The position numbers were made by a program, and so were the translations under genes. DNA of 60,424 nt. Origin: Acinetobacter phage Acba_15. The notes beneath the pieces are model-generated. The model worked only from the letters and a program-made list of their open reading frames with translations, searched no databases and was not told where the DNA came from. The DNA lies in the sequence record OQ101257.1. One strand, written 5' to 3'. Of this stretch, positions 1 through 52,782 are shown in pieces; the first letter of the stretch is position 1, and every line of letters starts with the position of its first letter.

Positions 1-45
1 TAATTTATGATTAGGTTTAAATATGCTTTAATAGACAAAAGAAAA

Positions 46-70
46 CCCACCGTGGTGGTGGGTTCGAAGG
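46..70 (-). terminator. Intrinsic terminator immediately downstream of the restriction-modification gene. On the minus strand the hairpin cccaccaccacggtggg is followed by ttttctttt.
   Basis: Inverted repeat followed by a T-run on the minus strand, right after the stop codon at position 76. Confidence 0.45.
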
Positions 71-75
71 GGGGA

Positions 76-2358
76 TTAGTTGTAATTTTGAGGAAGTTCC
101 CATAATGCTTCTGTCTTTAGACGCAATTTTTTTTGATTTTCCTTGAGACTATTCTCAATTTCCTTTATTAGTTTATGTTGTTTTACTATTTGATCTTTAA
201 CCTCTTCAGGAGGATTCGGGATCTCAATATTCAAAAACATTTCATCAGGAATACTGCGTCGTCTCTCTACACTGCCTTGCATTTTACTTTTGTATATTTT
301 TCTTAGAGAATTAGATCTCAAAATCAAATCCAAATATTCTACATTAACTTCTCGTTTTAATCTAAAGATTTTGTATGCTGGGCTTACGGCAGCAGCATCG
401 TAATATTTTTGAAATCCTAGAACACCTTCATCTATAGGGAACCCCATTACAAGTTCATTTTTAAAAACCTTTTTATACCCAGAAATATCAGAACTTGCGA
501 CTCGTTTTTTAAATTTCTCATGCTGATCAATTAAGCCATGTTCCATAGTGATACTCATAATAGGTATATTTGTATCCTCTCCCACTTTGACTTTGCCAGA
601 CAAGGATAGGAGTTCTTTTAGTTTTATAGTTGGGAATTTTGATTTTATATGTGAATTACTATAGTGAGCATAATTATAAATATAATCATTGCTTCTGATT
701 AATTCTGGATTAACTTTTAAGAAACCTAATTCATTATAATATTTATCAAAGTCGCTCTTATTTAAATCAGCAAAATCTAAATTTTTTAAATCATTTTCGT
801 CAATTTTTCTACGGAAAGAATCTAAACTTAGGCCATCATTTGTCACATTGTAGTAAAAAACGTCAGAATTTGTTCTACCATTATGACAGTTGGTAAAGTA
901 GAGTATATTGGTTTTAACTTTTGCATATGGCAGAAAAACTTCTTTTGGAAGTGAAACTACTGCTTTTAGTTGGGCGTTTTCAAATAAATACTTCCTTACT
1001 GGAGCTAAAGCGGCTTTAAAAAGAAAGCCTTCAGGTACTACTAATGCCATTCGCCCTCCTTTTTTTGTTGCTTTAAAGCAATGTAGAACACATACTCCAT
1101 CACCATCGTTTTTAGCTAACTTATTCTCATATAAGTGAGAATAAGAAGTTTTTTGAGAAAATGGCATGTTGGTTATAACCACATCATATTCAGATTCAAT
1201 AGGGTTTTGAAGTGTGTCTATCTGGCAAATTCCACTATGCCCATCCCCATGCAGAATCATATTCATTTTTGCGAGTTTTGCATTTGAGGTAATTTCTCTT
1301 CCAAAAATAGTATTATGTTTAAGCTTGATTTCTTCACTACTATTGTTTGCAATTAAAGTGTTATCTTTTATATGATCAAATGCCTCTGTTAAAAAACCAC
1401 CTGTCCCACAAAAAGGGTCATAGATCTTTTCACCATATTTAGGGTTGACTAAGTTAACAATGGTTTTAGTTATGTGACGTGGAGTAAAATATTCTCCTAA
1501 GTCATTATTAGTTGCTGTAGCTTGCTGTAAGAAATACTCAAAAGCATCTCCTTTAATATCGGTATCTATTGATGAGAGTTTTAACTTATCCAACTCTTTG
1601 ATCATCTCTTTAACAGCAACAGGGTTGGTTAGCTGTAAATTTGTAAAAACAGAAGCACCATATTGTCTATCAATATCTTGTAGTATGTTATTAGTTGTAT
1701 TAATTAGCAAATCATTATCGAGACTTTTGAGAGAATTCCAAATACCTGTATTAGCATTCTCTGTATACAATTTTAAAAAAAGAATGTTTGCAAATTCTGA
1801 AAGCCTTTCTATACCAGCTCTTAAACCTTCACCTCTTAGTGAGTTATTTAACTTCTTGAAAACATTAATTAACTCTTTGCGAGAGACTAAAATTTCTTTA
1901 GGTGTAATATAAATACCATTTGTTTCCTGCAATATGAACTCTTTAGCTTCATTTACTCTTATTAATTCATTAACCTCATTTTCATCAATAAATAATGGTT
2001 TTTGGGTATACAAATGCCGTGTTTCGCAGAAACCATTATTCATTGCAAATATCAAAGGTGCATCAAGCATTTCAGCATATTCGGTTGCCTGATCCAGTGC
2101 TTTTGTTAAGCTTTTTCCACCTGATTTCGTTTCAATTACACCGATTGGCCGCTTATTTTGTGAATCGAAAAGAACATAATCGGGTCTTTTTTTACTTTTC
2201 TTGAGAAACTCATTATTAACAATTCTTAAGATATCTGATTCAAAAAAGACATTTTTGTTTGGATCTTGAATGTCCAAGATCCAGCCCTTGTTAATCAAAT
2301 TATTGTTAACAATAAAACGTGTATCTTGCTCAATATTAGACATATTGCATAATCCCAA
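76..2358 (-). CDS. Single-polypeptide (Type IIG-like) restriction-modification enzyme. It fuses an N-terminal PD-(D/E)xK nuclease, a gamma-class N6-adenine DNA methyltransferase and a C-terminal HsdS-like target-recognition domain.
   Basis: Uninterrupted 760-aa ORF. N-terminal PDYVLFD...IETK matches the PD-(D/E)xK nuclease motif. Central YFTPRHI ... DPFCGTGGFL matches methyltransferase motifs X and I, and TNMPFS is an NPPF-like motif IV. The C-terminal roughly 250 aa are HsdS-TRD-like. The gene is markedly more AT-rich than the surrounding phage genes. Confidence 0.65.
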   Translation of the reverse strand: MGLCNMSNIEQDTRFIVNNNLINKGWILDIQDPNKNVFFESDILRIVNNEFLKKSKKRPDYVLFDSQNKRPIGVIETKSGGKSLTKALDQATEYAEMLDAPLIFAMNNGFCETRHLYTQKPLFIDENEVNELIRVNEAKEFILQETNGIYITPKEILVSRKELINVFKKLNNSLRGEGLRAGIERLSEFANILFLKLYTENANTGIWNSLKSLDNDLLINTTNNILQDIDRQYGASVFTNLQLTNPVAVKEMIKELDKLKLSSIDTDIKGDAFEYFLQQATATNNDLGEYFTPRHITKTIVNLVNPKYGEKIYDPFCGTGGFLTEAFDHIKDNTLIANNSSEEIKLKHNTIFGREITSNAKLAKMNMILHGDGHSGICQIDTLQNPIESEYDVVITNMPFSQKTSYSHLYENKLAKNDGDGVCVLHCFKATKKGGRMALVVPEGFLFKAALAPVRKYLFENAQLKAVVSLPKEVFLPYAKVKTNILYFTNCHNGRTNSDVFYYNVTNDGLSLDSFRRKIDENDLKNLDFADLNKSDFDKYYNELGFLKVNPELIRSNDYIYNYAHYSNSHIKSKFPTIKLKELLSLSGKVKVGEDTNIPIMSITMEHGLIDQHEKFKKRVASSDISGYKKVFKNELVMGFPIDEGVLGFQKYYDAAAVSPAYKIFRLKREVNVEYLDLILRSNSLRKIYKSKMQGSVERRRSIPDEMFLNIEIPNPPEEVKDQIVKQHKLIKEIENSLKENQKKLRLKTEALWELPQNYN

Positions 2359-38721: not shown

Positions 38722-39072
38722 ATGGCTATTAAAACTTTAGATCTTGCTGAAGCATATATTGTCGGTGAATTACGCACTCAATTATTAGATGCACGTAGTT
38801 TCGGGAATAATTTGCCTGCTGGCAGAATTGAAACTTTAGCGATTAATTATGATCGACCTTCTGATTCAGTGAATATTGCTGTTACACCAGGTGGTGGTTT
38901 AAACGGAAGTATGACTTTACTTGATGCTGACATCACAAAGTGGGCAATTCAAACGATCTTAAACACAGCTTATCTCTATCAGGTAGATGTAAACACTTTA
39001 AGCCTTAAATATGACTTGGCTGCTAAAAAAATTACTATTGAATATACTCCAGTTGTTTCAGGTCAAGCTTAA
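38722..39072 (+). CDS. Hypothetical tail protein.
   Basis: ORF with the upstream hairpin element. Confidence 0.3.
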   Translation: MAIKTLDLAEAYIVGELRTQLLDARSFGNNLPAGRIETLAINYDRPSDSVNIAVTPGGGLNGSMTLLDADITKWAIQTILNTAYLYQVDVNTLSLKYDLAAKKITIEYTPVVSGQA

Positions 39073-41263: not shown

Positions 41264-44200
41264 ATGGCGATTGTAAAAGGCGCGAAAAAGGGCAAAGGTG
41301 AGGCAAGAAAACCTGTAGTTGCTCCAGATTCCGCACAATCTAAAACCTATATAAAAATCTTATATGGTTTAGGTGAAGGCGAAATTGAAGGATTAGCCAA
41401 TGGCAATCAATCAATATTTCTTGAAGGAACTCCACTACAAGATGCCAATGGGAATCTGAATTATTCAAACGTAAAACTAGATTTCCGTAAAGGAACTAAT
41501 GATCAAGATTACATTGAAGGTTTTCCTTCAGTAGAAAGTGAAACTGCTGTCGATGTCGAATTGAAGTCAGGTGCTCCATGGGTACGAGCTTTTAATAATA
41601 TTGATCTTGATGCCGTTCGTATTCGCTTAAAGTGGGGACCACTTCGCCAGCAGGACTCAAGCACTGGTGATGTTAGTGGTATAACAATTGAATATGCTAT
41701 CGATATACAAACTGACGGTGGTGCCTGGACAGAAGTATTAAAAACAAAAATATCCGATAAGACTTCTGCAAATTATGAACGAGCTCACCGTATTGATTTA
41801 CCAAAGGCCGATAGTGGTTGGTTAATCCGGGTACGTCGCATTACACCTAATTCAACCTCTGAGTTTGTAAGCGACAAAATGTATGTTGAGGCATTTACTG
41901 AAGTTGTTGATGCAAAATTAAGATACCCAAATACGGCATTATTAGGTCTGCAATATGATGCCGAAACTTTTGGAAATGTGGCGAAATTAGCTGTAGATCT
42001 GAAAGGTCGATTGCTTTTAGTACCAACCAATTACAACCCGCAAACGCGACAATATACTGGAATTTGGGATGGTACTTTTAAAAGAGCTTACACAAATAAC
42101 CCGGCATGGATTTACTACGACCTTTGTACAAATGATCGTTATGGTTTAGGAAATCGCTTAACCCCATTCATGATTGATAAATGGTCTTTGTACCGTTTAG
42201 CTCAATACTGCGATCAAAGCGTTTCCGACGGACTTGGCGGCCAAGAACCTAGATTTACATGTAATGTGTACATTCAAAATGCTGAAGATGCTTTCAGTAT
42301 ATTAATGAAATTGGCTGGTGTCTTTCGAGCGATTGCCTTCTGGGATGGTACAAGCATTATATGTGATGCCGATATACCACAAGACACATATTTCACCTAT
42401 ACCCGTGCAAATGTGGTTGGTGGTGTTTTCGAATACTCAGGAACACGTGCACGTGATCGGCATAATGTAGTTAAGGTTGCGTGGGATAATCCTGCAAATC
42501 ACTATAAAACAGAATACGAATTTGTTCGCGATGAAAATGCTATTGCTGAGTCTGGCCAAGTACGCATTCTTGAATTAGATGCGTGGGGATGTACTTCTCG
42601 TGGCCAGGCTCAACGTGCAGGCCACTGGGCTTTAAAATCCGAGCAAAAGGAGACTCGTACAGTTTCGTTTAAAGTCGGTTTAGATGGGCATATTCCACTG
42701 CCAGGAAGAGTAATTGAAATTGCGGATGAACTGTTTGCAGGACGTGCTAATGGCGGACGTGTATCTAAAATTTCTGCTGATCTCAAAAGCATAACCATTG
42801 ATCGAGATGACGTTATTGCTAAAGCTGGTGATCGTCTGGTTATCAATGGCGAAAATGGCAAAGCACAAACGCGAATTGTTCAGTCGATCTCTGGTCGGGT
42901 TATCACAGTAACACTTCCATTCGATGAGAATTCAATTGCTGTACAAAACGTATGGGTTCTTGATGCTCAAGATTTAGCGACAATGAAGTTCCGCGTAATT
43001 TCAATCTCGCAAGAAGAAAAACACCAATTTAGCATTACAGCGCTTCAGTACAACCCGCAAAAATTTGATGAAATTGATAACGGGGCATTCTTTGAAGATG
43101 CACCTATTTCAATTATTAATCCTTCAATCCAGGAACCGGTTAAAGATGTTTTGATTACGACTGAAAGTCGTGTTGATCAGGGTATTAATATCACCACAAT
43201 GATTGTGTCTTGGATGCAAGCGAAAGGTGCCGTTAAGTATCTGGTTGAGTGGCGAAAAGATGATGGATCGTGGATCCGGTTACCGCAAACAGGAAATAAT
43301 TCAGTCGAGGTACCTGGTGTTTATTCAGGTCAATATCAAGCTCGTGTTACCGCAATTTCTGCTTTTGAAATCGCATCTTTACCGGTTACATCTTCCTTAA
43401 CTGAAATTACTGGAAAGCAGGGATTACCGCCGAAAATAGCTTTTATACGTGCCACAGGTATTTTGTTTGGAATGAAGCTTGATTGGGGATTCCCTCCAAC
43501 AGGTGCAAAAGATACAGCTTATACCGAAATTGAAGTTTCACCTGATGGCATCAACAATATTGCTCAATTAGGATTGTTTGCATATCCGACTACCACTACC
43601 ACAATCCAAGGTTTACAACCTAATCTTAGACAGTTTTATCGCGGTCGATTAATTGACCGGATTGGCAATGTTGGTCCTTGGTCTGAATGGGTCAATGGTA
43701 CGACCACAGCAGATCCGGAAGCGGTTCTTGATCTTATTTCTGGTCATATTAATGAGAGTGATCTTGCCCAAGAGCTTCAAGGTAAAATTGAAAATTCAGT
43801 CGATGTATCTGAAGCAGCCCAAGCTGCAGCAAATAATGCCCAAGCTGTTGCTAGTAGCGCCCAAACTGCAGCTAACAATGCCCAGGCTGTGGCCTCTGAA
43901 GCTAAGACGGCGGCCTCGAGTGCTCAATCGGCAGCAACCACTGCTCAAACACAAGCTTCTTCAGCCCAAAAAATAGCAAATGATGCGAGTGTTATAGCGA
44001 CCAATGCTAAAAATACTGCTGATCAGGCAGCTGAAGATGCGTCTTCAGCAATAACGGCAGCAGCAGAAGCAAAAACTACTGCTACTAATGCGAATACGAC
44101 CGCAACGAATGCACAAACAACCGCAAATAATGCTTCTTCGGCAGCATCAAAAGTTGCTTCAGATTTAACAACCTCAACAAATCAGTTGAATAAGAAAATC

Positions 44201-47200
44201 GCTGATGAAACTGATGCACGCACAGCGGCAATTTCTAAACTGAATGATGGTCTCACCACAGAAACGTCTCAGCGCAAGTCAGAAGATGCTGCACTGTTAA
44301 ACAATATTGAGACTTATAAGTCGAGCACCAATGGCACTTTGTCTAGTCTGCAAACGCAAATTAATACCAACGCGACAAATACAAGTGCAAATACATCAAA
44401 AATTTCTTCGCTTGACTCTCGTTTAACCACAAACGAAGGCAAAACCGCAGATGCGATTAATGCAGCGGCAACAGCTCAACAAACTGCCAATACCGCCGTT
44501 ACTAATGCGGCAGCAGCAGCTTCGGCAGTTACCTCACTAAAATCAGAGTTGAGTACAGGCAAAGGCATCAACAATATCATTGCGCCTTTTTCTGATCCGC
44601 AAGAACTATCACCTTACATTATCGGTGCGTCGAGAACCGTTGCCTTAGTAAAATCACCAATGCGTATTAAGGGTAATGCTTATGACGTTACATTTAATGC
44701 GGTGGCTGGCAGTATTTATTTTGGTTCCTCGTCACTAGCAACAGTCAATACTGCGGCGGCAGGTGTTGTCAGTGGCGGAAAGCGTTACATGCTAAGCGCT
44801 TATTTAAAGAACCTCGATGCCACTAAACAGGCAGATGTTTACTTTACATTGCATTGGTTTAAACGTGCAGCAAACGGCACTTTCACGGCTTCTCAAAGTG
44901 TTTTATTAAATCAGGCAACTAACAACACACGAGTAACACCTTCAAACGACGGCGGTACAATTAGCTGTAAAGCTGTAGCAGCACCACCAGATGCAGTTGC
45001 CTTTGCGGTTATCTGTTCTGGCAACGGCGTTTATAACGTCGCTGGTTCACGCATTCTCATTGACATGTTAATGCTTGAAGAGGTCGTTGGTGTCGATGTA
45101 CCTGCTTCAACATGGACAGCAGGACCAACTGATTTAAGTGCTATTAAATCCGCTCTTGATGCCAATGCTTCTGCTATTAGCAAAATCGATACCCGTGTAA
45201 CAAATGCCGAAGGCACCATTACAAGCCAAGGCAATTCAATTACTCAATTGAATAACAGCGTTACGTCAATCAATGGCGAACTTACGAAGAAAGCTGATGC
45301 TACGGCTTTAAATGCCTTAACCAACCGAGTATCGACAGCAGAAGGCACAATTACAAGTCAAGGCAATTCAATTACGTCTTTACGTAATGATTTAAACGCA
45401 ACCAATGACAAGGTTTCGTCAAAAGCGGACTCAAGTGCATTAAATTCCTTAGATTCTAAGGTTACAAGCATTGATGGAAGAGTAACTAGCAATACGAGTG
45501 CTGTGACCTCATTGCAAGGTCGTGTTTCAACCGTCGAGGGTGGACTTTCATCGAAAGCAGATGCCTCGGCATTAAACAATTACTACACCAAAACAGAGGC
45601 GGATTCTGCCGCTTCTGGCGCAATCGATAAGTTCAACAGTCAATTGACGATCGGCGGAGTAAACGCTGTTGCGAACTCAGAGGCTCCACGTACTTCAACG
45701 GCAGCGACTAACAAAGAATACTTGCTGTACGAACGCAGCGCCGAATTAAAAACGTTCTATGACGAGAACCTTGAGAAGCCAATCACGATTTCGTTTGAAA
45801 TGAGCGTTCCTGTGGCTGGACCAGTTCAAGTTTATTCGTCAAATGGTTCTGCTCACCAATTCGTTACTTCCGTTAACGCGGTTATCGTCAATCAGTTTGC
45901 CAAATACTCAGTAACAGTTAGTCCAAAATCGCACACCGCAAGTACAACTGTTTCAACAATTGAGTTCTATGGAACGTATGGAACTGGTCGTATCCCGACG
46001 ATTCGTAAATTACAAATTGAAGCGGGCACAAAGGCTACCGCTTGGAGTCCAAGCCCTCGTGATACAAAGGCTGCAATTGACGCCAATGCTTCTGCAATTC
46101 AAACGACCCAAACAAAAGTTGACAATATCGATGGTCGGCTAACCACTGCTACAGATTCGATTACGTCACTAAATTCGCGCATGTCTACAGCCGAAGGGAA
46201 TATCAACAGCACAAATACTGCGGTTGGTGGACTTTCGACACGCATGGCAACCGCTGAGGGCAAGATCACCAATCAAAGTGATTCAATTGCATCGCTACAA
46301 AATAGCGTCACCTCAATCAATGGAACACTGGCAAACAAAGCCGATTCAAGCGCGGTCAATAACTTAACTAGCCGAGTGGAAACAGCCGAGGGCAAGATTT
46401 CAAGTCAAAGCGGGCAGATTACTTCGCTTAGCAATAGCCTTGATCTAACAAACAGCAACTTGAACGACGTAAATGTTCTGGCGCGACTGTTATCGCTTGG
46501 TAAGCCTCTACGCGAGGATCCAACTTTTAAAACTACCTCTTCGGGCGGTTTGTCTGCATACAATTTCCCTGCGGGAACCTCATGGATTAAGCAAGCCAAG
46601 TCAACAGACAACCCAACTGGCTCAACCCATGAAATGCTTATTAAGGCAACTCAAGCGTTGGGTGGTGGTTGGTATCCAACTGCTCCAACGCTCGTGCTTA
46701 CTGCTAATAAGACATTCTTAATTAAACAAATTATTAAGATGCCAGTAGGCACGAGATTGCTACCTGTAGGTAACACCACTGGTACGGGTGGTTATATCAG
46801 AATCTTGGGTAACGATCTTGGGACTGGCAAATTTGAAACGTACTACTCGGTCGTTCAGGGTGGATCTGACTTAAGCAGCTCTATTCAGGGTCATTTCCGT
46901 GTAATTGCTGGGACCAACCCGCCAGTACCAACCGTTGATAGTCCAGTTTTTGTAATCCTCGCTTCATACGAAGTGTTTGATGTTACGGCTGTAAATGACA
47001 CCATTCCAAAAGCGTATAGCGATGCTATTGCAGCCAATGCGAATGCTATTAACACGATCTCAAACGCCGTCAGCCAGCAAGGCAATACAATTGCTTCTCA
47101 CAGCAATTCGATTACCCAACTCAACAACAGCATTACTAGCATTAATGGCGCACTTTCGAATAAAGCGGACGCGAGTGCATTACAGTCATTGGATTCAAAA

Positions 47201-50200
47201 GTAACGCTAATCGATGGCAAAGTTACTTCAAATTCATCGGCCTTAACGGCTTTACAAAGCAGCTTTGAGGGAATTCCAAATCAAGGCGTGAATCTGCTCG
47301 GCCCTGAAATTTCCAACCCAATCGAAAAGCCAAATTGGATTTCAGGCCTTCCATTTGAAGTTATTCAATCACCAGATACGGTGAATGTGCGTGCGTTCCA
47401 ATTCACGATGACTGCTAACACCACTAGCGGCACTTACTTCAATATTGGCGGTGGTCAAGTGCCTCGCCAATGGTTAACTGAAGGCAAATATATCTTTAGT
47501 TTTGTTGCTAAAACAGTTGATGGTGCGCCACCCCACCCGATTGACTGGGTAATGTACAACGTTAGCACTACTCGCCAACGTTTCAATATTACAGCGACAT
47601 TAACTCGTTACAGTGCGGTATTCACCGTTCCTGCCGGCGGCGCGGCAGCATGTATGTTGTTGTACGGAAATCCTGCTGGCAAACCTGCTGGCCAAGTTAT
47701 CAATATCGAAAGAATGATGCTTGAACGCCAAGTCGGCAACAACACCACGCCTTCGACTTGGATTGCAGGGTCAGATCCAACTGGAATGATCATTTCCACT
47801 CAAGCAAAAGCGACTGACCTGTTCAATACAGCCACGAATCAAAATAATGCAACTGCGGGACGTGTTACTAGCCTCGAAAGTCGCATGACAACCACAGAAG
47901 GCAATTTAAGCAAAAAGGCTGATGCTTCTGCGCTTCAAAACCTCGACACGAAAGTTACGAATGTCGATGGCAAGGTAACGTCAAATACCAACGCTATCAC
48001 CTCGCTCAATTCCGCGTTAAGCAATGCCACATCAAGTATTTCAATGAATGCGGGTAATGCACAGGGCGATTGGACATTCTTTAATACGTCAGGCGAATAC
48101 TCAATTGTTGCACAAGCGGACGGACAAGCTGGTCGAGTTATTCAACTGGGTAACAACGCGGGCAATGACATTGTTTGGATGCATCCAAACAACTTCATTC
48201 CGTTTGACGCAACCAAAACATATCGCTTACGAGTGCGTTATCGCCGTCGTGCAGGCAATGGCACCATTTATGTCGGTGTCTCGCAGAAAACCCCAGACAA
48301 GGCACTATACGTAACAACAGCCAACGCATTATCGGGCGACATGGGATCTTCTAACTATGTCGTTAATGCCCACGCGCCTGCGATCGATGAATGGCAAGAA
48401 ATCGTTGCGTATATCAAAGGTCGATCAGCAGGAGCGGCATCAGGTTCAGGCTCAAAAACAAGCCCACGTACTGTTTCACAACAAGCAGGCTTCATCACGC
48501 CGATGTTTATTGCAAACTATTCGGCGCAAACGGGCATTGTTGAGCTTGATTACCTAATTCTGGAAGATGCAGAGGCAATTGTTGCCAATGATGCAAATGC
48601 ATCAGCGATTAGCGCTCTTGATACCAAAGTATCAGAAGTTGATGGACGCTTAACGACAGCAACAAATTCAATCACTTCGCTTAACTCTCGTATGAGTGCA
48701 GCAGAAGGGAATATCTCAGCGGCAAACTCGGCTCTAAGCGGGCTTTCGACAAGAATGACGGCTGCTGAAAATGGTTTAACAAATCAAAGCAACGCGATTA
48801 CTAATTTAAGTAACAGCTTGACGGTTACAACCAATACAGCCAACGCTGCATTGCCAAAGATTCAGGGCGGCACTGGCGCAGCTAAGTTATTTAGAGGCGT
48901 GCTGGTGTGGCAACAAAACGGCGCAAATCTAACTGGCAATATCGTAATCCAAACGCCAATTACGTTCACAAATAAAATGTTCCGACTTTCACTTACTGGC
49001 TATAACTACTTGGCCGCTAAGAATGAAATTAATCTGAACATTGGGGGTTATGCATATTCGGGCACCTCTCTACTTCAACATGGTGTAGTGAATTCGGGCA
49101 CCATGCCAATTCGAGTTCGCATGGGCGTCCGTAATGGCACAGTAGTCATTATTTTGACGTCCCAAGCGCCCGGTGCTTATTGGCAGTATCCAAAATTCAA
49201 CATTGATGCCGAAATCGGCTATACAACTCCGCCAGACGAATGGATGAATGGTTGGTCTGCAAGCTTCATGGCAGAGGCAGACCTCGCATCTAATGGCATT
49301 TCGGCGATCATTGAGCCGTCTTTATTAGACATTTCAACAACGCTTAATGCCACTGCATCTGCAATTAGCAATCTGACAAATACTGTGTCTCAACAGGGTA
49401 ATACAATTACTTCACAAAGTAATTCTATTACCACCTTAACCAACAAGATTACTAACAACGATTTATCGAATCTTGTTCTTAATCCTGATTTCGTAGACCC
49501 GAAAAGCGATTGGACATCTGGCGTAATTGTTGATGCGACTGACGCAGCACCTAACCCGCCTTCTCCAAAAGCATTAAGACTGAATAACCGCGATAGTTAT
49601 TACGGTCCTTTTGTCAAATGTAATGTTGGCGACATGTTCTACGTTTCGGCTTGGTTTGCAACGCCAAATACATCAGTAATCGCTTCTGCTGTACTTGGTT
49701 TCAATACTCGAAACAGTGCAGGTACTTATACTTGGTATAGTGTTGCCGTCAAGTCTACAGATAAAAATGCTTGGGGTATGGTGGAAGGTTATTTCACTGT
49801 GCCAAATGGCATGGTTGAAATTCGACCTTGGCTTCAAGTAAGTATTGCTGCGTCAGAGGCAGCGGGGCAGCAATGGCATGTTACGAACATTCAAGTACGT
49901 AACATTACAGGTAATAAGAAATTAGCAACCGACTTGCAAGCAACCTCGTCTGCATTAAGTACGCTTGATTCCAAAGTTGCAAACATTGACGGCCGTGTAA
50001 CTTCCGCATCTAACAATATTGTTTCGCTCAACAATAGCGTCACAAACATCAATGCCGCACTTTCTCAGAAAGCGGATGCGGCGGCATTGAATTCCCTTTC
50101 TAACCGTGTAACCACTGCCGAAGGGAATATCACTAGTCAGGGTAATTCAATTACCTCATTGACCAACTCGTTAGCTGTGAGCGGAAAGGCGGGCACAAAC

Positions 50201-51733
50201 CTTCTCATCAAGTCAAATCAAGTCGGTACATATGATGGTGTCTCTTATCCGCATCACACCTACAAACTCGGTGAAGATTGGGAAATTGGGGCTACCTATA
50301 CTTTAATTTGGTGCGCTGAACATAAACGAGGGACTGGTGATACAAACTCATCACTTGCTGTATACGCAGGTGGTGGCTCACAACATCTACAAGCCGTAGT
50401 AAATACGAATGGTAAGGTTGTCAGCAAAGTTACCTTTGTTAAAAACAGCGCAGTTGCCTCTGGCCCAATTATCCACTTCTACATGCTCAACCGTCCGACA
50501 GCCGACAAGGGTAGCGTTGGTACGGTTTATTGGGCAGTTCTTGTTAAAGGCGATGTACTCACTACGGACGCGTGGATTCCGAGCCCATATGATTACATCC
50601 CTGATAGCAATGCAAACGCTTCTGCTATCGCAAATCTCACTAATACAGTAAGTCAGCAAGGCAATACTATTACCTCAAATAGCAGCAGCATTACCTCGCT
50701 AAACAATAGCATCACCAATATTAACAGCACATTAGCAACAAAAGCAGATAGTTCTGCGCTTACAAACCTCGCAAGCCGCGTAACCGCAACAGAAGGTGCA
50801 ATTACATCCCACGGCTCAAGCATTACTTCACTGAATGCATCTGTGAATGGTTTATTAAAGGATGTTTCAGTATCCGATACGCGGTCAACAAATCAGCCGC
50901 CGTCATGGTACTGGTCAAACTATCCATTACGTATCGTTCGCGAGTTCAAACAAGCATCTGTGCTAGGTTTAACTGGCATGGGCACTTATGTCTCTCTTGA
51001 AACATACGTTTATTGGACTGACGCATCTGGTGGCCCAATTATTCAAATTGCACGCGGCACAGATTCGAAACTTACTGCTGAACGTCGTAGTGCGAGTACA
51101 GCGGCATGGAGTACATGGACACAAGATATAAAAGCAATAAGTGATGGGCTTGCAAATAAGGCTGAAGCATCCGCACTTTCATCACTTGACTCGAAAGTGT
51201 CGGTTATTGATGGGAAAGTTTCTACTCAGGCCTCAAGTATTACTACACTGCAAACTACAGTTGGTGGTAATACAGCCTCTATTCAATCTCAACAACAATC
51301 AATTGATGGCCTGAAAGCAAGAGCAACATTGAAGCTGCAATCCGGCAATTTGGTTGGTGGCGTTGGCATTGAGAATGACAGCAAAACAGTCGATTTCATC
51401 ATCCAAGCTAATAAGTTTGCAATTGGTGCGCCTTCAACTGTTTCCGGCTCTGTGACGCCTAAATATGCATTCGTCTATCAATCAACAGCAACAACTCTGC
51501 CGAATGGGACAGTGATTCCTGCTGGCTTGTACTTAGACAGCGCGTCTATTAGCTATATCAACGCCAACAAAATTTATGCAGATAGTTTAAGTGCTATTAG
51601 TGCAAATCTTGGTACCTTTACCTCATTGGCAGATCAATCAAAACCAAATGGTGCTAGGACTGTAATTAGTGGTGAGAGGATCGAAGTTTACGACGAAAAC
51701 AATGTTATGCGTGTACGGATTGGGAGATGGTAA
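41264..51733 (+). CDS. Giant 3489-aa tip/host-specificity protein, gpJ-like at the N-terminus, followed by about nine repeated stalk-plus-domain modules.
   Basis: The N-terminal 800 aa resemble gpJ. There follow an Ala/Thr/Asn-rich region and then repeated blocks of DANASAI...TSQGNSITSL...KADASAL...RV...EG, each followed by a domain of about 200 aa. Confidence 0.7.
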   Translation: MAIVKGAKKGKGEARKPVVAPDSAQSKTYIKILYGLGEGEIEGLANGNQSIFLEGTPLQDANGNLNYSNVKLDFRKGTNDQDYIEGFPSVESETAVDVELKSGAPWVRAFNNIDLDAVRIRLKWGPLRQQDSSTGDVSGITIEYAIDIQTDGGAWTEVLKTKISDKTSANYERAHRIDLPKADSGWLIRVRRITPNSTSEFVSDKMYVEAFTEVVDAKLRYPNTALLGLQYDAETFGNVAKLAVDLKGRLLLVPTNYNPQTRQYTGIWDGTFKRAYTNNPAWIYYDLCTNDRYGLGNRLTPFMIDKWSLYRLAQYCDQSVSDGLGGQEPRFTCNVYIQNAEDAFSILMKLAGVFRAIAFWDGTSIICDADIPQDTYFTYTRANVVGGVFEYSGTRARDRHNVVKVAWDNPANHYKTEYEFVRDENAIAESGQVRILELDAWGCTSRGQAQRAGHWALKSEQKETRTVSFKVGLDGHIPLPGRVIEIADELFAGRANGGRVSKISADLKSITIDRDDVIAKAGDRLVINGENGKAQTRIVQSISGRVITVTLPFDENSIAVQNVWVLDAQDLATMKFRVISISQEEKHQFSITALQYNPQKFDEIDNGAFFEDAPISIINPSIQEPVKDVLITTESRVDQGINITTMIVSWMQAKGAVKYLVEWRKDDGSWIRLPQTGNNSVEVPGVYSGQYQARVTAISAFEIASLPVTSSLTEITGKQGLPPKIAFIRATGILFGMKLDWGFPPTGAKDTAYTEIEVSPDGINNIAQLGLFAYPTTTTTIQGLQPNLRQFYRGRLIDRIGNVGPWSEWVNGTTTADPEAVLDLISGHINESDLAQELQGKIENSVDVSEAAQAAANNAQAVASSAQTAANNAQAVASEAKTAASSAQSAATTAQTQASSAQKIANDASVIATNAKNTADQAAEDASSAITAAAEAKTTATNANTTATNAQTTANNASSAASKVASDLTTSTNQLNKKIADETDARTAAISKLNDGLTTETSQRKSEDAALLNNIETYKSSTNGTLSSLQTQINTNATNTSANTSKISSLDSRLTTNEGKTADAINAAATAQQTANTAVTNAAAAASAVTSLKSELSTGKGINNIIAPFSDPQELSPYIIGASRTVALVKSPMRIKGNAYDVTFNAVAGSIYFGSSSLATVNTAAAGVVSGGKRYMLSAYLKNLDATKQADVYFTLHWFKRAANGTFTASQSVLLNQATNNTRVTPSNDGGTISCKAVAAPPDAVAFAVICSGNGVYNVAGSRILIDMLMLEEVVGVDVPASTWTAGPTDLSAIKSALDANASAISKIDTRVTNAEGTITSQGNSITQLNNSVTSINGELTKKADATALNALTNRVSTAEGTITSQGNSITSLRNDLNATNDKVSSKADSSALNSLDSKVTSIDGRVTSNTSAVTSLQGRVSTVEGGLSSKADASALNNYYTKTEADSAASGAIDKFNSQLTIGGVNAVANSEAPRTSTAATNKEYLLYERSAELKTFYDENLEKPITISFEMSVPVAGPVQVYSSNGSAHQFVTSVNAVIVNQFAKYSVTVSPKSHTASTTVSTIEFYGTYGTGRIPTIRKLQIEAGTKATAWSPSPRDTKAAIDANASAIQTTQTKVDNIDGRLTTATDSITSLNSRMSTAEGNINSTNTAVGGLSTRMATAEGKITNQSDSIASLQNSVTSINGTLANKADSSAVNNLTSRVETAEGKISSQSGQITSLSNSLDLTNSNLNDVNVLARLLSLGKPLREDPTFKTTSSGGLSAYNFPAGTSWIKQAKSTDNPTGSTHEMLIKATQALGGGWYPTAPTLVLTANKTFLIKQIIKMPVGTRLLPVGNTTGTGGYIRILGNDLGTGKFETYYSVVQGGSDLSSSIQGHFRVIAGTNPPVPTVDSPVFVILASYEVFDVTAVNDTIPKAYSDAIAANANAINTISNAVSQQGNTIASHSNSITQLNNSITSINGALSNKADASALQSLDSKVTLIDGKVTSNSSALTALQSSFEGIPNQGVNLLGPEISNPIEKPNWISGLPFEVIQSPDTVNVRAFQFTMTANTTSGTYFNIGGGQVPRQWLTEGKYIFSFVAKTVDGAPPHPIDWVMYNVSTTRQRFNITATLTRYSAVFTVPAGGAAACMLLYGNPAGKPAGQVINIERMMLERQVGNNTTPSTWIAGSDPTGMIISTQAKATDLFNTATNQNNATAGRVTSLESRMTTTEGNLSKKADASALQNLDTKVTNVDGKVTSNTNAITSLNSALSNATSSISMNAGNAQGDWTFFNTSGEYSIVAQADGQAGRVIQLGNNAGNDIVWMHPNNFIPFDATKTYRLRVRYRRRAGNGTIYVGVSQKTPDKALYVTTANALSGDMGSSNYVVNAHAPAIDEWQEIVAYIKGRSAGAASGSGSKTSPRTVSQQAGFITPMFIANYSAQTGIVELDYLILEDAEAIVANDANASAISALDTKVSEVDGRLTTATNSITSLNSRMSAAEGNISAANSALSGLSTRMTAAENGLTNQSNAITNLSNSLTVTTNTANAALPKIQGGTGAAKLFRGVLVWQQNGANLTGNIVIQTPITFTNKMFRLSLTGYNYLAAKNEINLNIGGYAYSGTSLLQHGVVNSGTMPIRVRMGVRNGTVVIILTSQAPGAYWQYPKFNIDAEIGYTTPPDEWMNGWSASFMAEADLASNGISAIIEPSLLDISTTLNATASAISNLTNTVSQQGNTITSQSNSITTLTNKITNNDLSNLVLNPDFVDPKSDWTSGVIVDATDAAPNPPSPKALRLNNRDSYYGPFVKCNVGDMFYVSAWFATPNTSVIASAVLGFNTRNSAGTYTWYSVAVKSTDKNAWGMVEGYFTVPNGMVEIRPWLQVSIAASEAAGQQWHVTNIQVRNITGNKKLATDLQATSSALSTLDSKVANIDGRVTSASNNIVSLNNSVTNINAALSQKADAAALNSLSNRVTTAEGNITSQGNSITSLTNSLAVSGKAGTNLLIKSNQVGTYDGVSYPHHTYKLGEDWEIGATYTLIWCAEHKRGTGDTNSSLAVYAGGGSQHLQAVVNTNGKVVSKVTFVKNSAVASGPIIHFYMLNRPTADKGSVGTVYWAVLVKGDVLTTDAWIPSPYDYIPDSNANASAIANLTNTVSQQGNTITSNSSSITSLNNSITNINSTLATKADSSALTNLASRVTATEGAITSHGSSITSLNASVNGLLKDVSVSDTRSTNQPPSWYWSNYPLRIVREFKQASVLGLTGMGTYVSLETYVYWTDASGGPIIQIARGTDSKLTAERRSASTAAWSTWTQDIKAISDGLANKAEASALSSLDSKVSVIDGKVSTQASSITTLQTTVGGNTASIQSQQQSIDGLKARATLKLQSGNLVGGVGIENDSKTVDFIIQANKFAIGAPSTVSGSVTPKYAFVYQSTATTLPNGTVIPAGLYLDSASISYINANKIYADSLSAISANLGTFTSLADQSKPNGARTVISGERIEVYDENNVMRVRIGRW

Positions 51734-52057
51734 ATGCCCACAGGAATGATAATAAATTCTGAATCAGGGGAAGTTGTTTTTGATGGAACTGTGAAGATCC
51801 CTAAAATACTAGGGAAGGTTCTAATCGAGAATGGACAAACTTCAGCAGTATTAAACCTTAACAAGCCACTTGATGGCACGATGTTTTTTATTCCAAAAGG
51901 ATTAGCAACTACAGTCGATCCAATCTATGCCCCTTTGGGAATTAACTATGAAGTAAGTCTTAGTTCTAACAAGCAGGTTGTAACGGTTAAATACATCGCG
52001 ACCAGTGAGCAGCCAAAAGCAGGGACTGATTTTGAAGTTTATATTGGTGAATATTGA
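51734..52057 (+). CDS. Hypothetical protein downstream of J.
   Basis: ORF with translational coupling to J. Confidence 0.3.
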   Translation: MPTGMIINSESGEVVFDGTVKIPKILGKVLIENGQTSAVLNLNKPLDGTMFFIPKGLATTVDPIYAPLGINYEVSLSSNKQVVTVKYIATSEQPKAGTDFEVYIGEY

Positions 52058-52782
52058 TGGATAACTATTTCTTAGTAAAGAATGACTTCATAAATGCTAT
52101 TGATGATGACTATTTCAATCTTGCATTTATTAGAAAACAACGTTTTAACTTCACATCTGAACCTGGGATTACCTATTACTATCGTACTTTTGAAGTAGAT
52201 ATAACAGGGATAGATTTTCCTGTTATTGCAATTAGTTGTGTTTGTCCTTCTGCTTATTTAAGTATGAAAGCCAATACGCTTTCTATTGTTTGCTCAGCAA
52301 GTAATTATGATGGTGTGGCTAATTCAGTTAGCAATTTAAATAATTCATCTAAGTATTTAGATGTGTTTGTTTTTGGTCGATTGCCTAGAAGCAGTATTCC
52401 AGAACATGGTATTGGTGTAGTCTGTTTAGATGCATCAAGTAAAGTAGTTTATTACAGTGGTGCAGAGTATTTGAAACCCATAAAAATGTTTATTGATCCC
52501 AATACTTATCGACCAATGTTTAATTCAAACTACAATACTCAGGTCGAGTATTTGCCGATTGGCAAGTCTTATGCATGTATTCCCTTAAATAGAGTAAATA
52601 CTGTTTATTCGGAGTGGACGCCTGAAGGTCAAGATGTCATAGCAATGTCATCAGTTTGTGCTATTGAGGGCAATACTATTACTTATACCTCAAATCAGGT
52701 GCAAGTCGCACAAGATATTAGTGCTGTTTACAATGGATATTGTAGACATATGTACATGTTAATCGATGTATCGAACTATTAA
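52054..52782 (+). CDS. Hypothetical protein, candidate fibre accessory or assembly protein.
   Basis: ORF only. Confidence 0.3.
   Translation: MMDNYFLVKNDFINAIDDDYFNLAFIRKQRFNFTSEPGITYYYRTFEVDITGIDFPVIAISCVCPSAYLSMKANTLSIVCSASNYDGVANSVSNLNNSSKYLDVFVFGRLPRSSIPEHGIGVVCLDASSKVVYYSGAEYLKPIKMFIDPNTYRPMFNSNYNTQVEYLPIGKSYACIPLNRVNTVYSEWTPEGQDVIAMSSVCAIEGNTITYTSNQVQVAQDISAVYNGYCRHMYMLIDVSNY

What the first reader, a model, noticed from the sequence alone, without database searches (positions are those of the whole stretch)
41264..51733. Giant 3489-aa J-like fibre built from about nine repeated modules, each a conserved stalk repeat plus a variable domain of about 200 aa
After a gpJ-like N-terminal region and an Ala/Thr/Asn-rich low-complexity region (DNA 43790..44560), the protein repeats a module at least nine times. 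Module starts are at DNA positions about 45160, 46080, 47025, 47830, 48585, 49340, 49920, 50610 and 51150.

Each module begins with a recognisable linker, ...DANASAI..(L/I)...V....G..TS....I(T/S)SL.NS...IN..L..KAD.SAL..L..RV...EG.ITSQ. A divergent globular segment follows the linker.

The DNA-level repeats could drive recombination that shuffles or deletes modules. That would be a route to host-range variation. The repeat number may also be prone to assembly collapse.
Basis: seen in the sequence. Interest (0 to 1): 0.7.

Follow-up and report, generated by a model that had tools for sequence, protein, structure and literature searches.

The report
Giant beaded central tail fibre
This is the tip-fibre gene of a known Acinetobacter baumannii temperate phage: a 3489-residue lambda-J-type protein with nine helical stalk pieces alternating with sugar-binding-like knobs, which related phages add, drop and reorder at the stalk pieces.

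Summary
ORF 41264..51733 (+) encodes a 3489-aa TipJ/lambda-gpJ homologue in a canonical TMP-M-L-K-I-J tail-tip cluster. Its DNA is 100% identical to published A. baumannii temperate siphophages (Acba_14 and others).

Layout:
- a J hub, aa 1-849
- an Ala/Thr/Asn-rich coiled coil, aa 850-1115

The linkers resemble each other far beyond composition (z 5.6-29). They are homologous to the trimeric coiled coil of the P22 tail needle gp26. AF2 models of G3 and G2 (pLDDT 88-89) are helix / beta-sandwich / helix and match CBM4/16/22 folds. Profile comparison links G0, G1, G3, G6, G7 and, more weakly, G4. G5 and G8 remain unassigned. The C-terminus is a conserved J straight-fibre tip.

Related alleles (2990-4082 aa) gain, lose, duplicate and reorder modules. 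Every breakpoint I mapped lies in or within about 20 residues of a linker, and one junction is a hybrid S3/S6 linker.

Within this allele the DNA repeats are weak (longest exact match 17 nt), and 16 independent contigs carry the identical protein. Assembly collapse is therefore not an issue.

The architecture is widespread (1651 clusters; phiKO2 Gp21, deposited in GenBank as AY374448) but I found no published dissection. Glycan binding is inferred, not shown.

The parts
41264..43810 (+). TipJ/gpJ hub and FNIII domains (aa 1-849)
   Evidence: Pfam FNIII-A_GpJ and Phage-tail_3. Lambda J 8iyk aligns to aa 9-849 at E 2e-140. The gene follows TMP, M, L, K and I.
43811..44608 (+). Ala/Thr/Asn-rich coiled-coil region (aa 850-1115). 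It is homologous to the coiled coil of the F-pyocin central fibre.
   Evidence: The F2-pyocin fibre 25vf aligns through aa 1074. A 21-nt tandem repeat lies at 43817-43889.
44609..45157 (+). G0 globular domain (aa 1116-1298), CBM_4_9-like superfamily
   Evidence: hhalign G0~G3 at 100% probability, E 1.5e-43. G0-type sequences were recruited by the G3 profile.
45158..45616 (+). S1 stalk linker (aa 1299-1451), gp26-like coiled coil with a 44-aa super-repeat
45617..46078 (+). G1 globular domain (aa 1452-1605), same superfamily; it ends in the motif ...LQIEAGTKATAWSPSPRD
   Evidence: hhalign G0~G1 at 96% and G1~G7 at 95.9%. It is the second most widespread G family, found in 92 of 150 diverse representatives; only the tip domain G9 (117) is commoner.
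46079..46486 (+). S2 stalk linker (aa 1606-1741)
   Evidence: Best match to P22 gp26 (4lin, 3c9i, 2poh, 4zkp) across aa 1535-1682.
46487..47029 (+). G2 globular domain (aa 1742-1922), a beta-sandwich with CBM22/4/16-like fold
   Evidence: AF2 model with pLDDT 89.2, helix / 10 strands / helix. Foldseek hit 4xuo at E 1.8e-5 and TMt 0.65.
47030..47269 (+). S3 stalk linker (aa 1923-2002). It is one partner of the recombinant junction seen in phage phi1_092021.
47270..47833 (+). G3 globular domain (aa 2003-2190), a CBM4/16/22-like beta-sandwich
   Evidence: AF2 model with pLDDT 88.4. Foldseek hits 3p6b (E 7.8e-7), 4xup and 2zex (TMt 0.67). 13 of 41 family members hit Pfam CBM_4_9.
47834..48016 (+). 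S4 stalk linker (aa 2191-2251)
   Evidence: Its start is helical in the G3 model.
48017..48589 (+). G4 globular domain (aa 2252-2442), possibly the same superfamily
   Evidence: hhalign G0~G4 at 87.5%. A 46%-identical paralogue, G4b, is inserted in other alleles.
48590..48844 (+). S5 stalk linker (aa 2443-2527)
48845..49345 (+). G5 globular domain (aa 2528-2694), fold unassigned
   Evidence: No Pfam or PDB relative by profile search. No hhalign link to the other G families.
49346..49459 (+). S6 stalk linker (aa 2695-2732), the shortest. It is the other partner of the phi1_092021 junction.
49460..49933 (+). G6 globular domain (aa 2733-2890), CBM-like superfamily
   Evidence: hhalign G0~G6 at 96.2% and G3~G6 at 95.1%. 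Six G6 modules lie in succession in allele P0039; three copies at a 241-aa period were resolved.
49934..50176 (+). S7 stalk linker (aa 2891-2971)
50177..50608 (+). G7 globular domain (aa 2972-3115), related to G1
   Evidence: hhalign G1~G7 at 95.9%.
50609..50869 (+). S8 stalk linker (aa 3116-3202). Other alleles carry an extra module here.
50870..51133 (+). G8 small domain (aa 3203-3290), fold unassigned. It usually precedes the tip in relatives.
51134..51316 (+). S9 last coiled-coil segment (aa 3291-3351)
51317..51733 (+). G9, the C-terminal J-type central straight-fibre tip (aa 3352-3489), plus the stop codon
   Evidence: 9ze4_N at E 1.7e-7. 7z4b_EA at E 6.8e-6, aligned to the last residue. 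Pfam Phage_Tail_Tip is below threshold, E 0.0027.

Best explanation
The gene encodes the central tail fibre (TipJ/gpJ) of a lambda-like temperate siphophage of Acinetobacter baumannii.

Shown or strongly supported:
- The N-terminal 849 aa form the conserved tail-tip hub.
- An Ala-rich coiled coil follows.
- About 2240 aa of 'beads on a rod' come next. Nine alpha-helical stalk segments, homologous to the trimeric coiled coil of the P22 tail needle gp26, alternate with globular beta-sandwich domains.
- At least six of those domains belong to, or share the fold of, CBM_4_9/CBM16/CBM22 carbohydrate-binding modules.
- A conserved J-type straight-fibre tip ends the protein.

Inferred:
- As a trimer the fibre would be roughly 150-190 nm long. 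It would display about 27 CBM-like domains at nine levels along the rod.
- These would make weak, multivalent, reversible contacts with surface polysaccharide (capsule, LOS or PNAG) and guide the thin fibre through the capsule.
- The conserved distal tip would then engage the final receptor and trigger opening of the J hub, as in lambda and the F-pyocins.

Evolution (shown): the helical linkers act as interchangeable joints. Alleles in other prophages and phages differ by insertion, deletion, duplication and reordering of whole [domain + linker] cassettes. Breakpoints lie in or at the edges of the linkers. Individual segments occur as discrete sequence types that are reassorted. The same cassette families occur in a very large, diverse protein family and in tail proteins of Acinetobacter myophages and N4-like podophages.
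For: Gene context: TMP, M, L, K, I, J.

Homology to J and to the F2-pyocin fibre.

Linkers:
- Mutual similarity with z 5.6-29.
- Conserved head.
- Motifs confined to the linkers.
- gp26 and reovirus sigma-1 coiled-coil hits.
- Sequence autocorrelation peaks at lags of 7, 21 and 44 residues, and the spacing of L/I/V/M has an 11/3-residue component.
- AF2 predicts helices on both sides of G3 and G2.

Domains:
- G3 and G2 models have pLDDT 88.4 and 89.2.
- Foldseek matches CBM4, CBM16 and CBM22 at E 1e-5 to 8e-7 and TMt up to 0.67.
- 13 of 41 G3/G0-family members hit Pfam CBM_4_9, best E 2.1e-6.
- hhalign links G0, G1, G3, G6 and G7 at 95-100% and G4 at 87.5%.
- In the library of predicted viral structures (BFVD) the best matches are phage tail proteins, including one named 'CBM-cenC domain-containing'.

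Tip: 9ze4_N and 7z4b_EA.

Shuffling:
- Allele architectures.
- Breakpoints in or next to linkers.
- Hybrid S3/S6 linker at nucleotide level.
- Per-segment mosaic identity, including a 40%-identical hub carrying a 99-100% identical G0-G4 array.

Spread:
- 1651 clusters at 50% identity, with combinatorial module orders.
- phiKO2 Gp21 has the same build.
- Modules occur in other phage morphotypes.

The published Acba siphophages gave small clear plaques without halo; only the podovirus Acba_6 gave a halo (PMC9866556).
Against: - No binding was tested. CBM-like folds in phage tails are not always lectins. Identity to characterised CBMs is 10-17%, and the window's own G domains do not reach any Pfam CBM threshold.
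- G5 and G8 have no assigned fold.
- The trimeric state, fibre length and lateral display of the domains are inferred from homology, not modelled. Only monomer AF2 was available and I could not inspect coordinates.
- The modules are fairly conserved (mostly 85-100%) among A. baumannii alleles. That fits a structural role as well as a specificity role.
- The direction of each rearrangement (gain or loss) is unknown.
Confidence: 0.6

Rival explanations
1. Spacer or ruler model. Only the conserved C-terminal tip (G8-S9-G9) binds a receptor. The [linker + domain] cassettes are structural, and the beta-sandwich beads stiffen or cap the coiled-coil segments. Their number sets the fibre length so that the tip can cross capsules of different thickness. 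Module gain and loss then tunes reach, not specificity.
For: The tip pair G8-G9, or G9 alone, ends nearly all relatives, while the internal order is free. Alleles differ mainly in module number, 2990-4082 aa. Internal modules are mostly 85-100% identical among A. baumannii alleles. No window G domain passes a Pfam CBM threshold.
Against: At least ten different domain families are maintained and exchanged across hundreds of diverged proteins and across phage morphotypes. That is hard to explain for inert spacers, because a plain coiled coil would do the job. The fold and a family-level Pfam link point to CBM_4_9. G9 itself occurs in two sequence types, 100% and 77%, so the tip is not invariant either.
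Confidence: 0.2
2. Retractile fold-switch fibre. As in the F7 pyocin central fibre, the coiled-coil parts (the Ala-rich region and perhaps S1-S9) convert to beta-prism after receptor binding. This shortens the fibre, pulls the tail tip through the capsule to the outer membrane and opens the hub.
For: aa 4-1074, including most of the Ala-rich coiled coil, align to the F2-pyocin fibre. He et al. 2026 (PMC12874032) showed a 163-aa coiled coil switching to a beta-prism in the F7 pyocin and predicted the same for many siphophage central fibres. A loose form of their SxSxxMxxLxS pattern is enriched in S1-S9: 37 observed against 14.6 +/- 3.7 in shuffles, with 0 of 1000 shuffles reaching the observed count. 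S9 is directly followed by the J-type tip, as in the pyocin.
Against: The pattern as I coded it overlaps any a/d-type coiled-coil spacing with small residues, so the enrichment is not specific. In the Ala-rich region it is not significant: 6 observed against 3.0 +/- 1.7, with 83 of 1000 shuffles reaching it. That region is followed by a CBM-like domain, not by the beta-prism seed the paper describes. The S segments resemble the P22 gp26 core, which is a very stable coiled coil (my own knowledge). AF2 gave helices. No alternative-conformation prediction could be run.
Confidence: 0.07
3. Assembly artefact. The module number is inflated or collapsed by mis-assembly of repeats.
For: The protein is repetitive at the amino-acid level. 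A review flagged possible assembly errors in the Acba_11 record (PMC11126041). Singleton alleles with tandem identical modules, such as P0039 with six G6, could be artefacts.
Against: The DNA copies are 61-76% identical and the longest exact repeat is 17 nt. The gene matches seven phage records at 100.0% displayed identity. The identical protein is on 16 contigs from NCBI and Logan assemblies. Same-length relatives are found in complete chromosomes.
Confidence: 0.01

Closest known systems
Lambda gpJ / TipJ central tail fibre (PDB 8iyk) and the F-type pyocin central fibre protein (PDB 25vf; He et al. 2026, PMC12874032)
   Same: Same gene position after M-L-K-I. Homologous hub and FNIII domains. 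Homologous Ala-rich coiled coil (pyocin). Homologous C-terminal straight-fibre tip.
   Different: Lambda J has 1132 aa and the F2 fibre 1204 aa. Here about 2240 aa of nine [coiled coil + globular domain] cassettes sit between the coiled coil and the tip, so the coiled coil is not followed by the beta-prism seed.
Klebsiella phage phiKO2 Gp21 (3433 aa, GenBank AY374448, 'similar to lambda J protein') and the roughly 4200-aa homologues in Klebsiella prophages (PMC7784688)
   Same: A giant J protein with G1- and G6-family domains alternating with KADxSALxxL / RVxxAEGxI stalk segments.
   Different: About 30-35% identity in the shared parts. A different set and order of modules. No D-A-N-A-S-A-I linker head. 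I found no dissection of its architecture in the literature I could search; the 2004 paper was not held.
P22 tail needle gp26 (PDB 3c9i, 2poh, 4lin) and the reovirus sigma-1 tail (6gaj)
   Same: The stalk linkers share the ...RVTTAEG.I.SLQ..VSALDGRV... coiled-coil repeats.
   Different: gp26 is a separate 233-aa plug protein of a podophage with no inserted CBM-like domains. Here the repeats are linkers within J. Several linkers show a 44-aa (4 x 11) periodicity.
Tal extensions and 'evolved' Dit/Tal proteins carrying carbohydrate-binding modules in siphophages of Gram-positive bacteria (Goulet et al. 2020, PMC7291167). The BppA CBM there resembles CBM4 1GUI.
   Same: The tail-tip protein is extended or decorated by CBM-fold domains thought or shown to bind host polysaccharide with low affinity. 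1gui is also among the G3 fold hits.
   Different: Those carry one or a few CBMs. They sit on a gp27-like Tal of Gram-positive phages, not on a lambda-J hub, and lack a long gp26-like coiled-coil rod.
CBM_4_9 (Pfam PF02018), CBM16 and CBM22 carbohydrate-binding modules of glycoside hydrolases
   Same: The beta-sandwich fold of G3 and G2. 13 of 41 G3/G0-family members hit PF02018.
   Different: 10-17% identity. The window's own domains are below Pfam thresholds. The ligand site was not examined. The context is a virion fibre, not an enzyme.

Membership tests
TipJ / lambda gpJ tip attachment protein | Encoded directly after the tape measure, M, L, K and I genes of a lambda-type tail-tip cluster | tested here: met
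   Pfam TMP_3, Phage_min_tail, Phage_tail_L, Prok-JAB + NLPC_P60 and Lambda_tail_I on the five upstream genes.
TipJ / lambda gpJ tip attachment protein | N-terminal hub domains homologous to J | tested here: met
   FNIII-A_GpJ at 151 bits and Phage-tail_3 at 65 bits. 8iyk_J at E 2.4e-140 over aa 9-849. PHROG 31 'central tail fiber J'.
TipJ / lambda gpJ tip attachment protein | C-terminal central straight-fibre / tip domain | tested here: met
   9ze4_N at E 1.7e-7. 7z4b_EA at E 6.8e-6, aligned to the last residue. Pfam Phage_Tail_Tip scores only 17.9 bits against a cut-off of 22.
TipJ / lambda gpJ tip attachment protein | Homotrimer at the tail tip of the virion | not testable with these tools
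   Only monomer structure prediction was available, and there are no virion data.
F-pyocin-type fold-switching central fibre (He et al. 2026) | Ala-rich coiled coil homologous to that of the pyocin fibre | tested here: met
   25vf_A aligns to aa 4-1074 in one stretch.
F-pyocin-type fold-switching central fibre (He et al. 2026) | SxSxxMxxLxS pattern in the switching segment | tested here: inconclusive
   Ala-rich region: 6 observed against 3.0 +/- 1.7, with 83 of 1000 shuffles reaching it. S1-S9: 37 against 14.6 +/- 3.7. My regular expression is loose and overlaps generic coiled-coil spacing.
F-pyocin-type fold-switching central fibre (He et al. 2026) | The coiled coil is followed directly by the beta-prism seed and tip | tested here: not met
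   The Ala-rich region is followed by G0, a CBM-like domain. Only the short S9 (61 aa) abuts the tip.
P22 gp26-type trimeric coiled coil | Sequence similarity to the gp26 helical core | tested here: met
   4lin_A at E 2.7e-9 and 3c9i at E 1.1e-5. 4lin_A at E 7e-8 for S1, with alignments.
P22 gp26-type trimeric coiled coil | Alpha-helical, with heptad or hendecad periodicity | tested here: met
   AF2 helices flank G3 and G2, with per-10-residue block pLDDT of 66-90 in the flanks. Autocorrelation peaks at lags 7, 21 and 44. 11/3 and 3.5 periodicity of L/I/V/M.
P22 gp26-type trimeric coiled coil | A separate tail-needle (plug) protein | tested here: not met
   Here the repeats are internal linkers of the J protein, so the protein is not filed as a tail needle.
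CBM_4_9 / CBM16 / CBM22 carbohydrate-binding modules | Beta-sandwich (jelly-roll) fold | tested here: met
   G3: 3p6b at E 7.8e-7 and 2zex_B at TMt 0.67. G2: 4xuo at E 1.8e-5 and TMt 0.65. By homology G0, G1, G6 and G7.
CBM_4_9 / CBM16 / CBM22 carbohydrate-binding modules | Match to the Pfam family model above its threshold | tested here: inconclusive
   No window G domain hits any CBM family. 13 of 41 relatives of G3/G0 hit PF02018, best E 2.1e-6.
CBM_4_9 / CBM16 / CBM22 carbohydrate-binding modules | Binds carbohydrate | not testable with these tools

The most novel reading that the evidence does not exclude
The fibre could be an active, retractile device rather than a passive rod. [quoted passage not shown] A fibre of about 150 nm would then shorten stepwise and reel the tail tip through the capsule of A. 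baumannii without any depolymerase. In that reading each cassette is one step of a ratchet, and the number of cassettes sets the stroke length.
Probability: 0.07. Interest if true: 0.85.

Novelty: new variant of a known kind. Interest (0 to 1): 0.45.

Why it matters
A. baumannii is a priority pathogen for phage therapy, and host range limits that therapy. This fibre type is very common in its prophages: one 90%-identity cluster alone was seen on 659 contigs.

It suggests how temperate siphophages without a recognisable depolymerase might reach the outer membrane through a thick capsule, using a very long, thin, multivalent lectin-like fibre.

The linkers are natural splice points where whole binding cassettes have been exchanged. 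These exchanges occur even between siphophages, myophages and N4-like podophages, and between two unrelated tail-tip hubs. That gives concrete junction coordinates for engineering chimeric fibres.

The placement of about 2240 aa between the pyocin-type coiled coil and the tip also poses a direct question for the newly described fold-switch trigger of non-contractile tails: how is a signal at the tip passed to the hub?

Tried and rejected
1. Self-BLAST of the whole protein returned only the identity hit. I replaced it with chunked BLAST.

2. I wanted AF2 on two 1200-aa stretches, with homologous fragments of each domain as the alignment. MAFFT stacked fragments of different families on top of each other. 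The stacking was reproduced locally. Adding anchor rows or using only two families per alignment did not fix it, except for G8+G9. I therefore modelled only two single domains with their flanks, G3 and G2. G4, G5, G8 and the trimeric tip were not modelled.

3. The search for related loci with the G3 alignment failed because no stretch was conserved enough. Taxonomic spread therefore rests on tblastn against phage records and on the source names.

4. Profile searches of the G5 and G8 families against PDB sequences and Pfam gave nothing.

5. The phiKO2 paper (Casjens et al. 2004) is not in the held library. I could not check whether the repeats of Gp21 were described there.

6. Considered and rejected:
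- Assembly duplication.
- A side tail fibre or tailspike with depolymerase: no enzymatic domain was found in any segment.
- Tandem DNA repeats as the driver: only one 21-nt array, in the Ala-rich region.

7. The fold-switch motif count is not specific enough to support the retractile reading.
Full report
**Observation**

The ORF 41264..51733 (+) is open for 3489 codons. Cutting the protein into 120-aa chunks and comparing them with the whole protein shows that internal similarity is confined to ten stretches. Between them lie stretches that match nothing else in the protein.

I refined the boundaries with motif positions:
- hub, aa 1-849
- Ala/Thr/Asn-rich region, aa 850-1115
- ten globular segments G0-G9, of 183, 154, 181, 188, 191, 167, 158, 144, 88 and 138 aa
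- nine linkers S1-S9, of 153, 136, 80, 61, 85, 38, 81, 87 and 61 aa, separating the globular segments

The similarity is not a composition effect. All 36 linker pairs exceed every one of 200 shuffles, with z from 5.6 to 29. Six linkers begin with a conserved head, consensus DANASAIS.L.T.VSQQG.TITS.SNSITSLNNSIT.ING.L..KAD, with nine invariant columns. The motifs KADxSALxxL, RVxxAEGxI and ITSLxN occur only inside the linkers. The globular segments are mutually unrelated by BLASTP apart from weak G0~G3 and G1~G7 matches.

**What the gene is**

The upstream genes are a tape measure protein, gpM, an unknown 116-aa ORF, gpL, gpK (JAB + NlpC/P60) and gpI. A GH108 endolysin and an integrase lie downstream. 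This is a lambda-type tail-tip cluster with the gene in the J position.

Pfam finds FNIII-A_GpJ and Phage-tail_3. PHROGs finds 'central tail fiber J' and two very long tail-protein families. Solved structures match strongly: lambda J over aa 9-849, and the F2-pyocin tail fibre over aa 4-1074.

The DNA shows 100.0% identity over its full length to seven published A. baumannii temperate siphophages (Acba_3, 4, 11, 13, 14, 16 and 18). It is 93.8% identical to AM106. The annotation there is 'putative main tail protein'. The paper describing the Acba phages does not discuss the protein. The start of the window is the early region of the same group of phages.

**The stalk**

The linkers hit the helical core of the P22 tail needle gp26 (4lin, 3c9i, 2poh, 4zkp) and the coiled-coil tail of reovirus sigma-1. 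The alignments run through the ...RVTTAEG.I.SLQ..VSALDGRV... repeats. Pfam gives only sub-threshold coiled-coil families (SlyX, DUF16).

Sequence autocorrelation peaks at lags of 7, 21 and 44 residues. In S1, S3, S4, S7 and S8 the L/I/V/M spacing has more power at 11/3 than at 3.5 residues, which fits a 44-residue (4 x 11) super-repeat. AF2 predicts long helices on both sides of the two domains I modelled.

I infer a trimeric alpha-helical rod. The 1048 residues of the Ala-rich region plus S1-S9 would span about 155 nm at 0.148 nm per residue, before adding the beads. The trimeric state and the length were not tested.

**The beads**

I collected relatives with a word-indexed search (5250 hits; the best 120 are all A. 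baumannii TipJ proteins of 2964-4082 aa). I also ran a full HMMER scan of representatives clustered at 50% identity. That scan gave 1651 clusters at E <= 1e-3 and 237 at E <= 1e-30, many of them 2000-7239 aa with up to 18 matched stretches.

Iterated searches on these 270 proteins found each G family in 22 to 117 of the 150 diverse representatives.

Profile-profile comparison joins several families:
- G0~G3 at 100%
- G0~G6 at 96%
- G0~G1 at 96%
- G1~G7 at 96%
- G1~G3 at 95.5%
- G3~G6 at 95%
- G0~G4, less surely, at 87.5%
- G2, G5, G8 and G9 stand apart

AF2 with family alignments gave confident models. S3end-G3-S4start has pLDDT 88.4 and S2end-G2-S3start has pLDDT 89.2. Each is a helix, a ten-strand beta-sandwich and a helix.

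Foldseek against the PDB puts both next to CBM4, CBM16 and CBM22 modules. G3 matches 3p6b at E 7.8e-7, with TMt up to 0.67. G2 matches 4xuo at E 1.8e-5 with TMt 0.65. Both also match phage baseplate proteins. Against predicted viral structures, G3 matches tail proteins of Acinetobacter phages ME3, XC38 and Presley, streptococcal PblB and a 'CBM-cenC' protein of a Bacillus phage.

At the sequence level the window's own domains hit no Pfam family. However, 13 of 41 members of the G3/G0 family hit CBM_4_9, best E 2.1e-6.

So G2 and G3 (by modelling) and G0, G1, G6 and G7 (by homology to G3/G0) are CBM-like beta-sandwiches, making six, with G4 a possible seventh. G5 and G8 have no relative in Pfam or the PDB.

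**The tip**

S9-G9 aligns with a solved 'J central straight fiber domain' protein (9ze4_N, E 1.7e-7). It also aligns, right to the C-terminal ...RIGRW, with a solved tail-tip fibre protein (7z4b_EA, E 6.8e-6). G9, usually preceded by G8, ends nearly all relatives.

**Module shuffling**

Among A. baumannii alleles the order G0..G9 seen here belongs to the shortest prophage class, 3475-3491 aa. Other classes differ as follows:
- The 3763-aa class has a 46%-identical paralogue of G4 inserted at S8.
- The 3702-aa class has an unrelated 160-aa domain inserted at S8.
- The 4081-aa class, on contigs of about 110 kb that are often labelled plasmid, has a G0/G3 paralogue after G0.
- The 3891-3970-aa class has a C-terminal extension.
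- Single alleles read G0-G1-G2-G3-G4-G2-G3-G4-G8-G9, G0-G1-G2-G6-G1-G2-G6-G7-X-G8-G9, and G0-G1-G2-(G6)x6-G8-G9.

The sewage phage phi1_092021 has a 2990-aa allele that lacks G3-G5 and carries the extra G4 paralogue.

When the alleles are threaded on this protein, every point where colinearity breaks lies inside a linker or within about 20 residues of its edge. At nucleotide level the phi1_092021 junction is a hybrid linker. It is S3-like upstream and S6-like downstream, with the switch in the stretch encoding SQQGNTI.

Segment-by-segment identities are mosaic. For example, one allele has a hub only 40% identical to this one but G0-G4 at 99-100%. G9 occurs as 100% and 77% types. G2 occurs as 100, 92, 86 and 66% types.

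In the diverse representatives the same domain families occur in almost any order and number. Klebsiella phage phiKO2 Gp21 (3433 aa, annotated only as 'similar to lambda J protein') has G1- and G6-type domains alternating with the same stalk motifs. Klebsiella prophages with a homologue of about 4200 aa have been noted in passing. tblastn finds cassettes in 103 phage records, mostly Klebsiella and Acinetobacter, including myophages and N4-like podophages.

**DNA repeats and assembly**

Within this gene the linker DNA copies are 61-76% identical over 31-131 nt. The longest exact repeat is 17 nt, against 12-16 nt in shuffled sequence. The only tandem array is a 21-nt repeat in the Ala-rich region.

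Such repeats neither confuse assemblers nor favour frequent RecA-type intragenic deletion. The identical protein is on 16 contigs from independent assemblies.

Exchange is therefore more likely to occur between different alleles or phages, or through relaxed-homology recombination. The phage carries an AAA_24 gene at 57086-57967, the Pfam family that I recall includes Sak4-type recombinases. I note this as a lead only.

**How it probably works**

Shown: the anatomy, the homologies, the folds of two domains, and the pattern of rearrangements.

Inferred: the protein forms a trimeric rod roughly 150-190 nm long, with nine levels of three CBM-like domains and a J-type tip. It would bind surface polysaccharide weakly and multivalently, thread through the capsule, and deliver the tip to the final receptor. 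The J hub would then open as in lambda and the F-pyocins. The absence of halos for the Acba siphophages fits a route that needs no depolymerase.

The main rival is that the beads are structural and only the length and the tip matter.

A more novel possibility follows He et al. 2026: the coiled coils switch to beta-prism and retract the fibre. Homology to the pyocin fibre through aa 1074 keeps this open. Against it, the Ala-rich region is followed by a CBM-like domain rather than a beta-prism seed, and my motif counts are not specific.

**Novelty**

The sequence is already public and named as a TipJ / central fibre. The parts are known: the J hub, the gp26-type coiled coil, the CBM_4_9-like domains and the J tip. 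CBM-bearing Tal extensions are known in Gram-positive siphophages.

In the literature I could search I did not find a description of any of the following:
- the repeated [coiled coil + CBM-like] cassette architecture of giant J proteins
- its combinatorial shuffling at the linkers
- its placement between the pyocin-type coiled coil and the tip

I rate it a new variant of a known kind, of moderate interest.

**Limits**

- There are no binding data and no multimer models.
- I could not see the model coordinates, so I cannot say whether the domains sit in line with the rod or beside it.
- G4, G5 and G8 were not modelled.
- The direction of each rearrangement is unknown.
- Some singleton alleles may be assembly errors.

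Noticed in passing
window 38722-39072 (+): A 116-aa ORF sits between the gpM and gpL homologues. It has no Pfam match and belongs to PHROG 16763 (function unknown). It interrupts the otherwise canonical M-L-K-I-J order. It is also present in phi1_092021 and Acba_14.
   Followed up: partly
window 51734-52057 and 52054-52782 (+): Two genes start directly at the J stop codon (107 and 242 aa). The second is called 'putative side tail fiber protein' in Acba_14 and 'membrane-associated protein' in phi1_092021. Neither has a Pfam match, and both hit only PHROGs of unknown function (2427, 6061). They could be fibre chaperones or accessory proteins.
   Followed up: partly
window 57086-57967 (-): A 293-aa protein with the Pfam AAA_24 domain, annotated 'RecA-like recombination and repair protein' in Acba_14. 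From memory this is the family of Sak4-type phage recombinases. It could help recombination between the diverged linker repeats.
   Followed up: partly
window 59615-60403 (-): A 262-aa pentapeptide-repeat protein (Pfam Pentapeptide, E 6e-36) in the early or lysogeny region of the phage. Its role is unknown.
   Followed up: no
window 43817-43889 (+): The only tandem DNA repeat in the gene has a period of 21 nt and 3.5 copies. It encodes AQAAANN-type heptads at the start of the Ala-rich coiled coil. The 3475-aa allele is 14 aa shorter than this one, and its Ala-rich region is only 96% identical.
   Followed up: partly
related proteins P0031, P0050-P0105 (about 4077-4082 aa): A large allele class lies on contigs of about 93-118 kb, several labelled plasmid. 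Its hub is only 40% identical to this one, but it carries the same module array plus two extra modules. This looks like a phage-plasmid lineage sharing the fibre cassettes.
   Followed up: partly
related protein P0041, aa 3170-3329 (3702-aa allele class): An extra 160-aa domain is inserted at linker S8 and has no similarity to any domain of this window. From memory it looks like an ILEI/FAM3-type domain, but I did not test that.
   Followed up: no
related protein P0039 (3741 aa): Six G6 modules lie in succession (three copies at a 241-aa period were resolved), in a protein from a 4.1-Mb contig. This is either a recent amplification or an assembly artefact.
   Followed up: no
phage records H15-H21 and H39-H44: Single cassettes (for example S1-G1-S2 at 50% identity and G4 at 35-37%) occur in tail fibre proteins of Acinetobacter myophages (phiAbaA1, Acba_22, Aci05, TAC1, Acibel004, ME3) and N4-like podophages (nACB1, XC38). 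The cassette pool is therefore shared across phage morphotypes.
   Followed up: partly
window 1-2000: G+C is 0.315, against about 0.39-0.46 in the rest of the window. This region matches the early or restriction-modification-related region of related phages.
   Followed up: no
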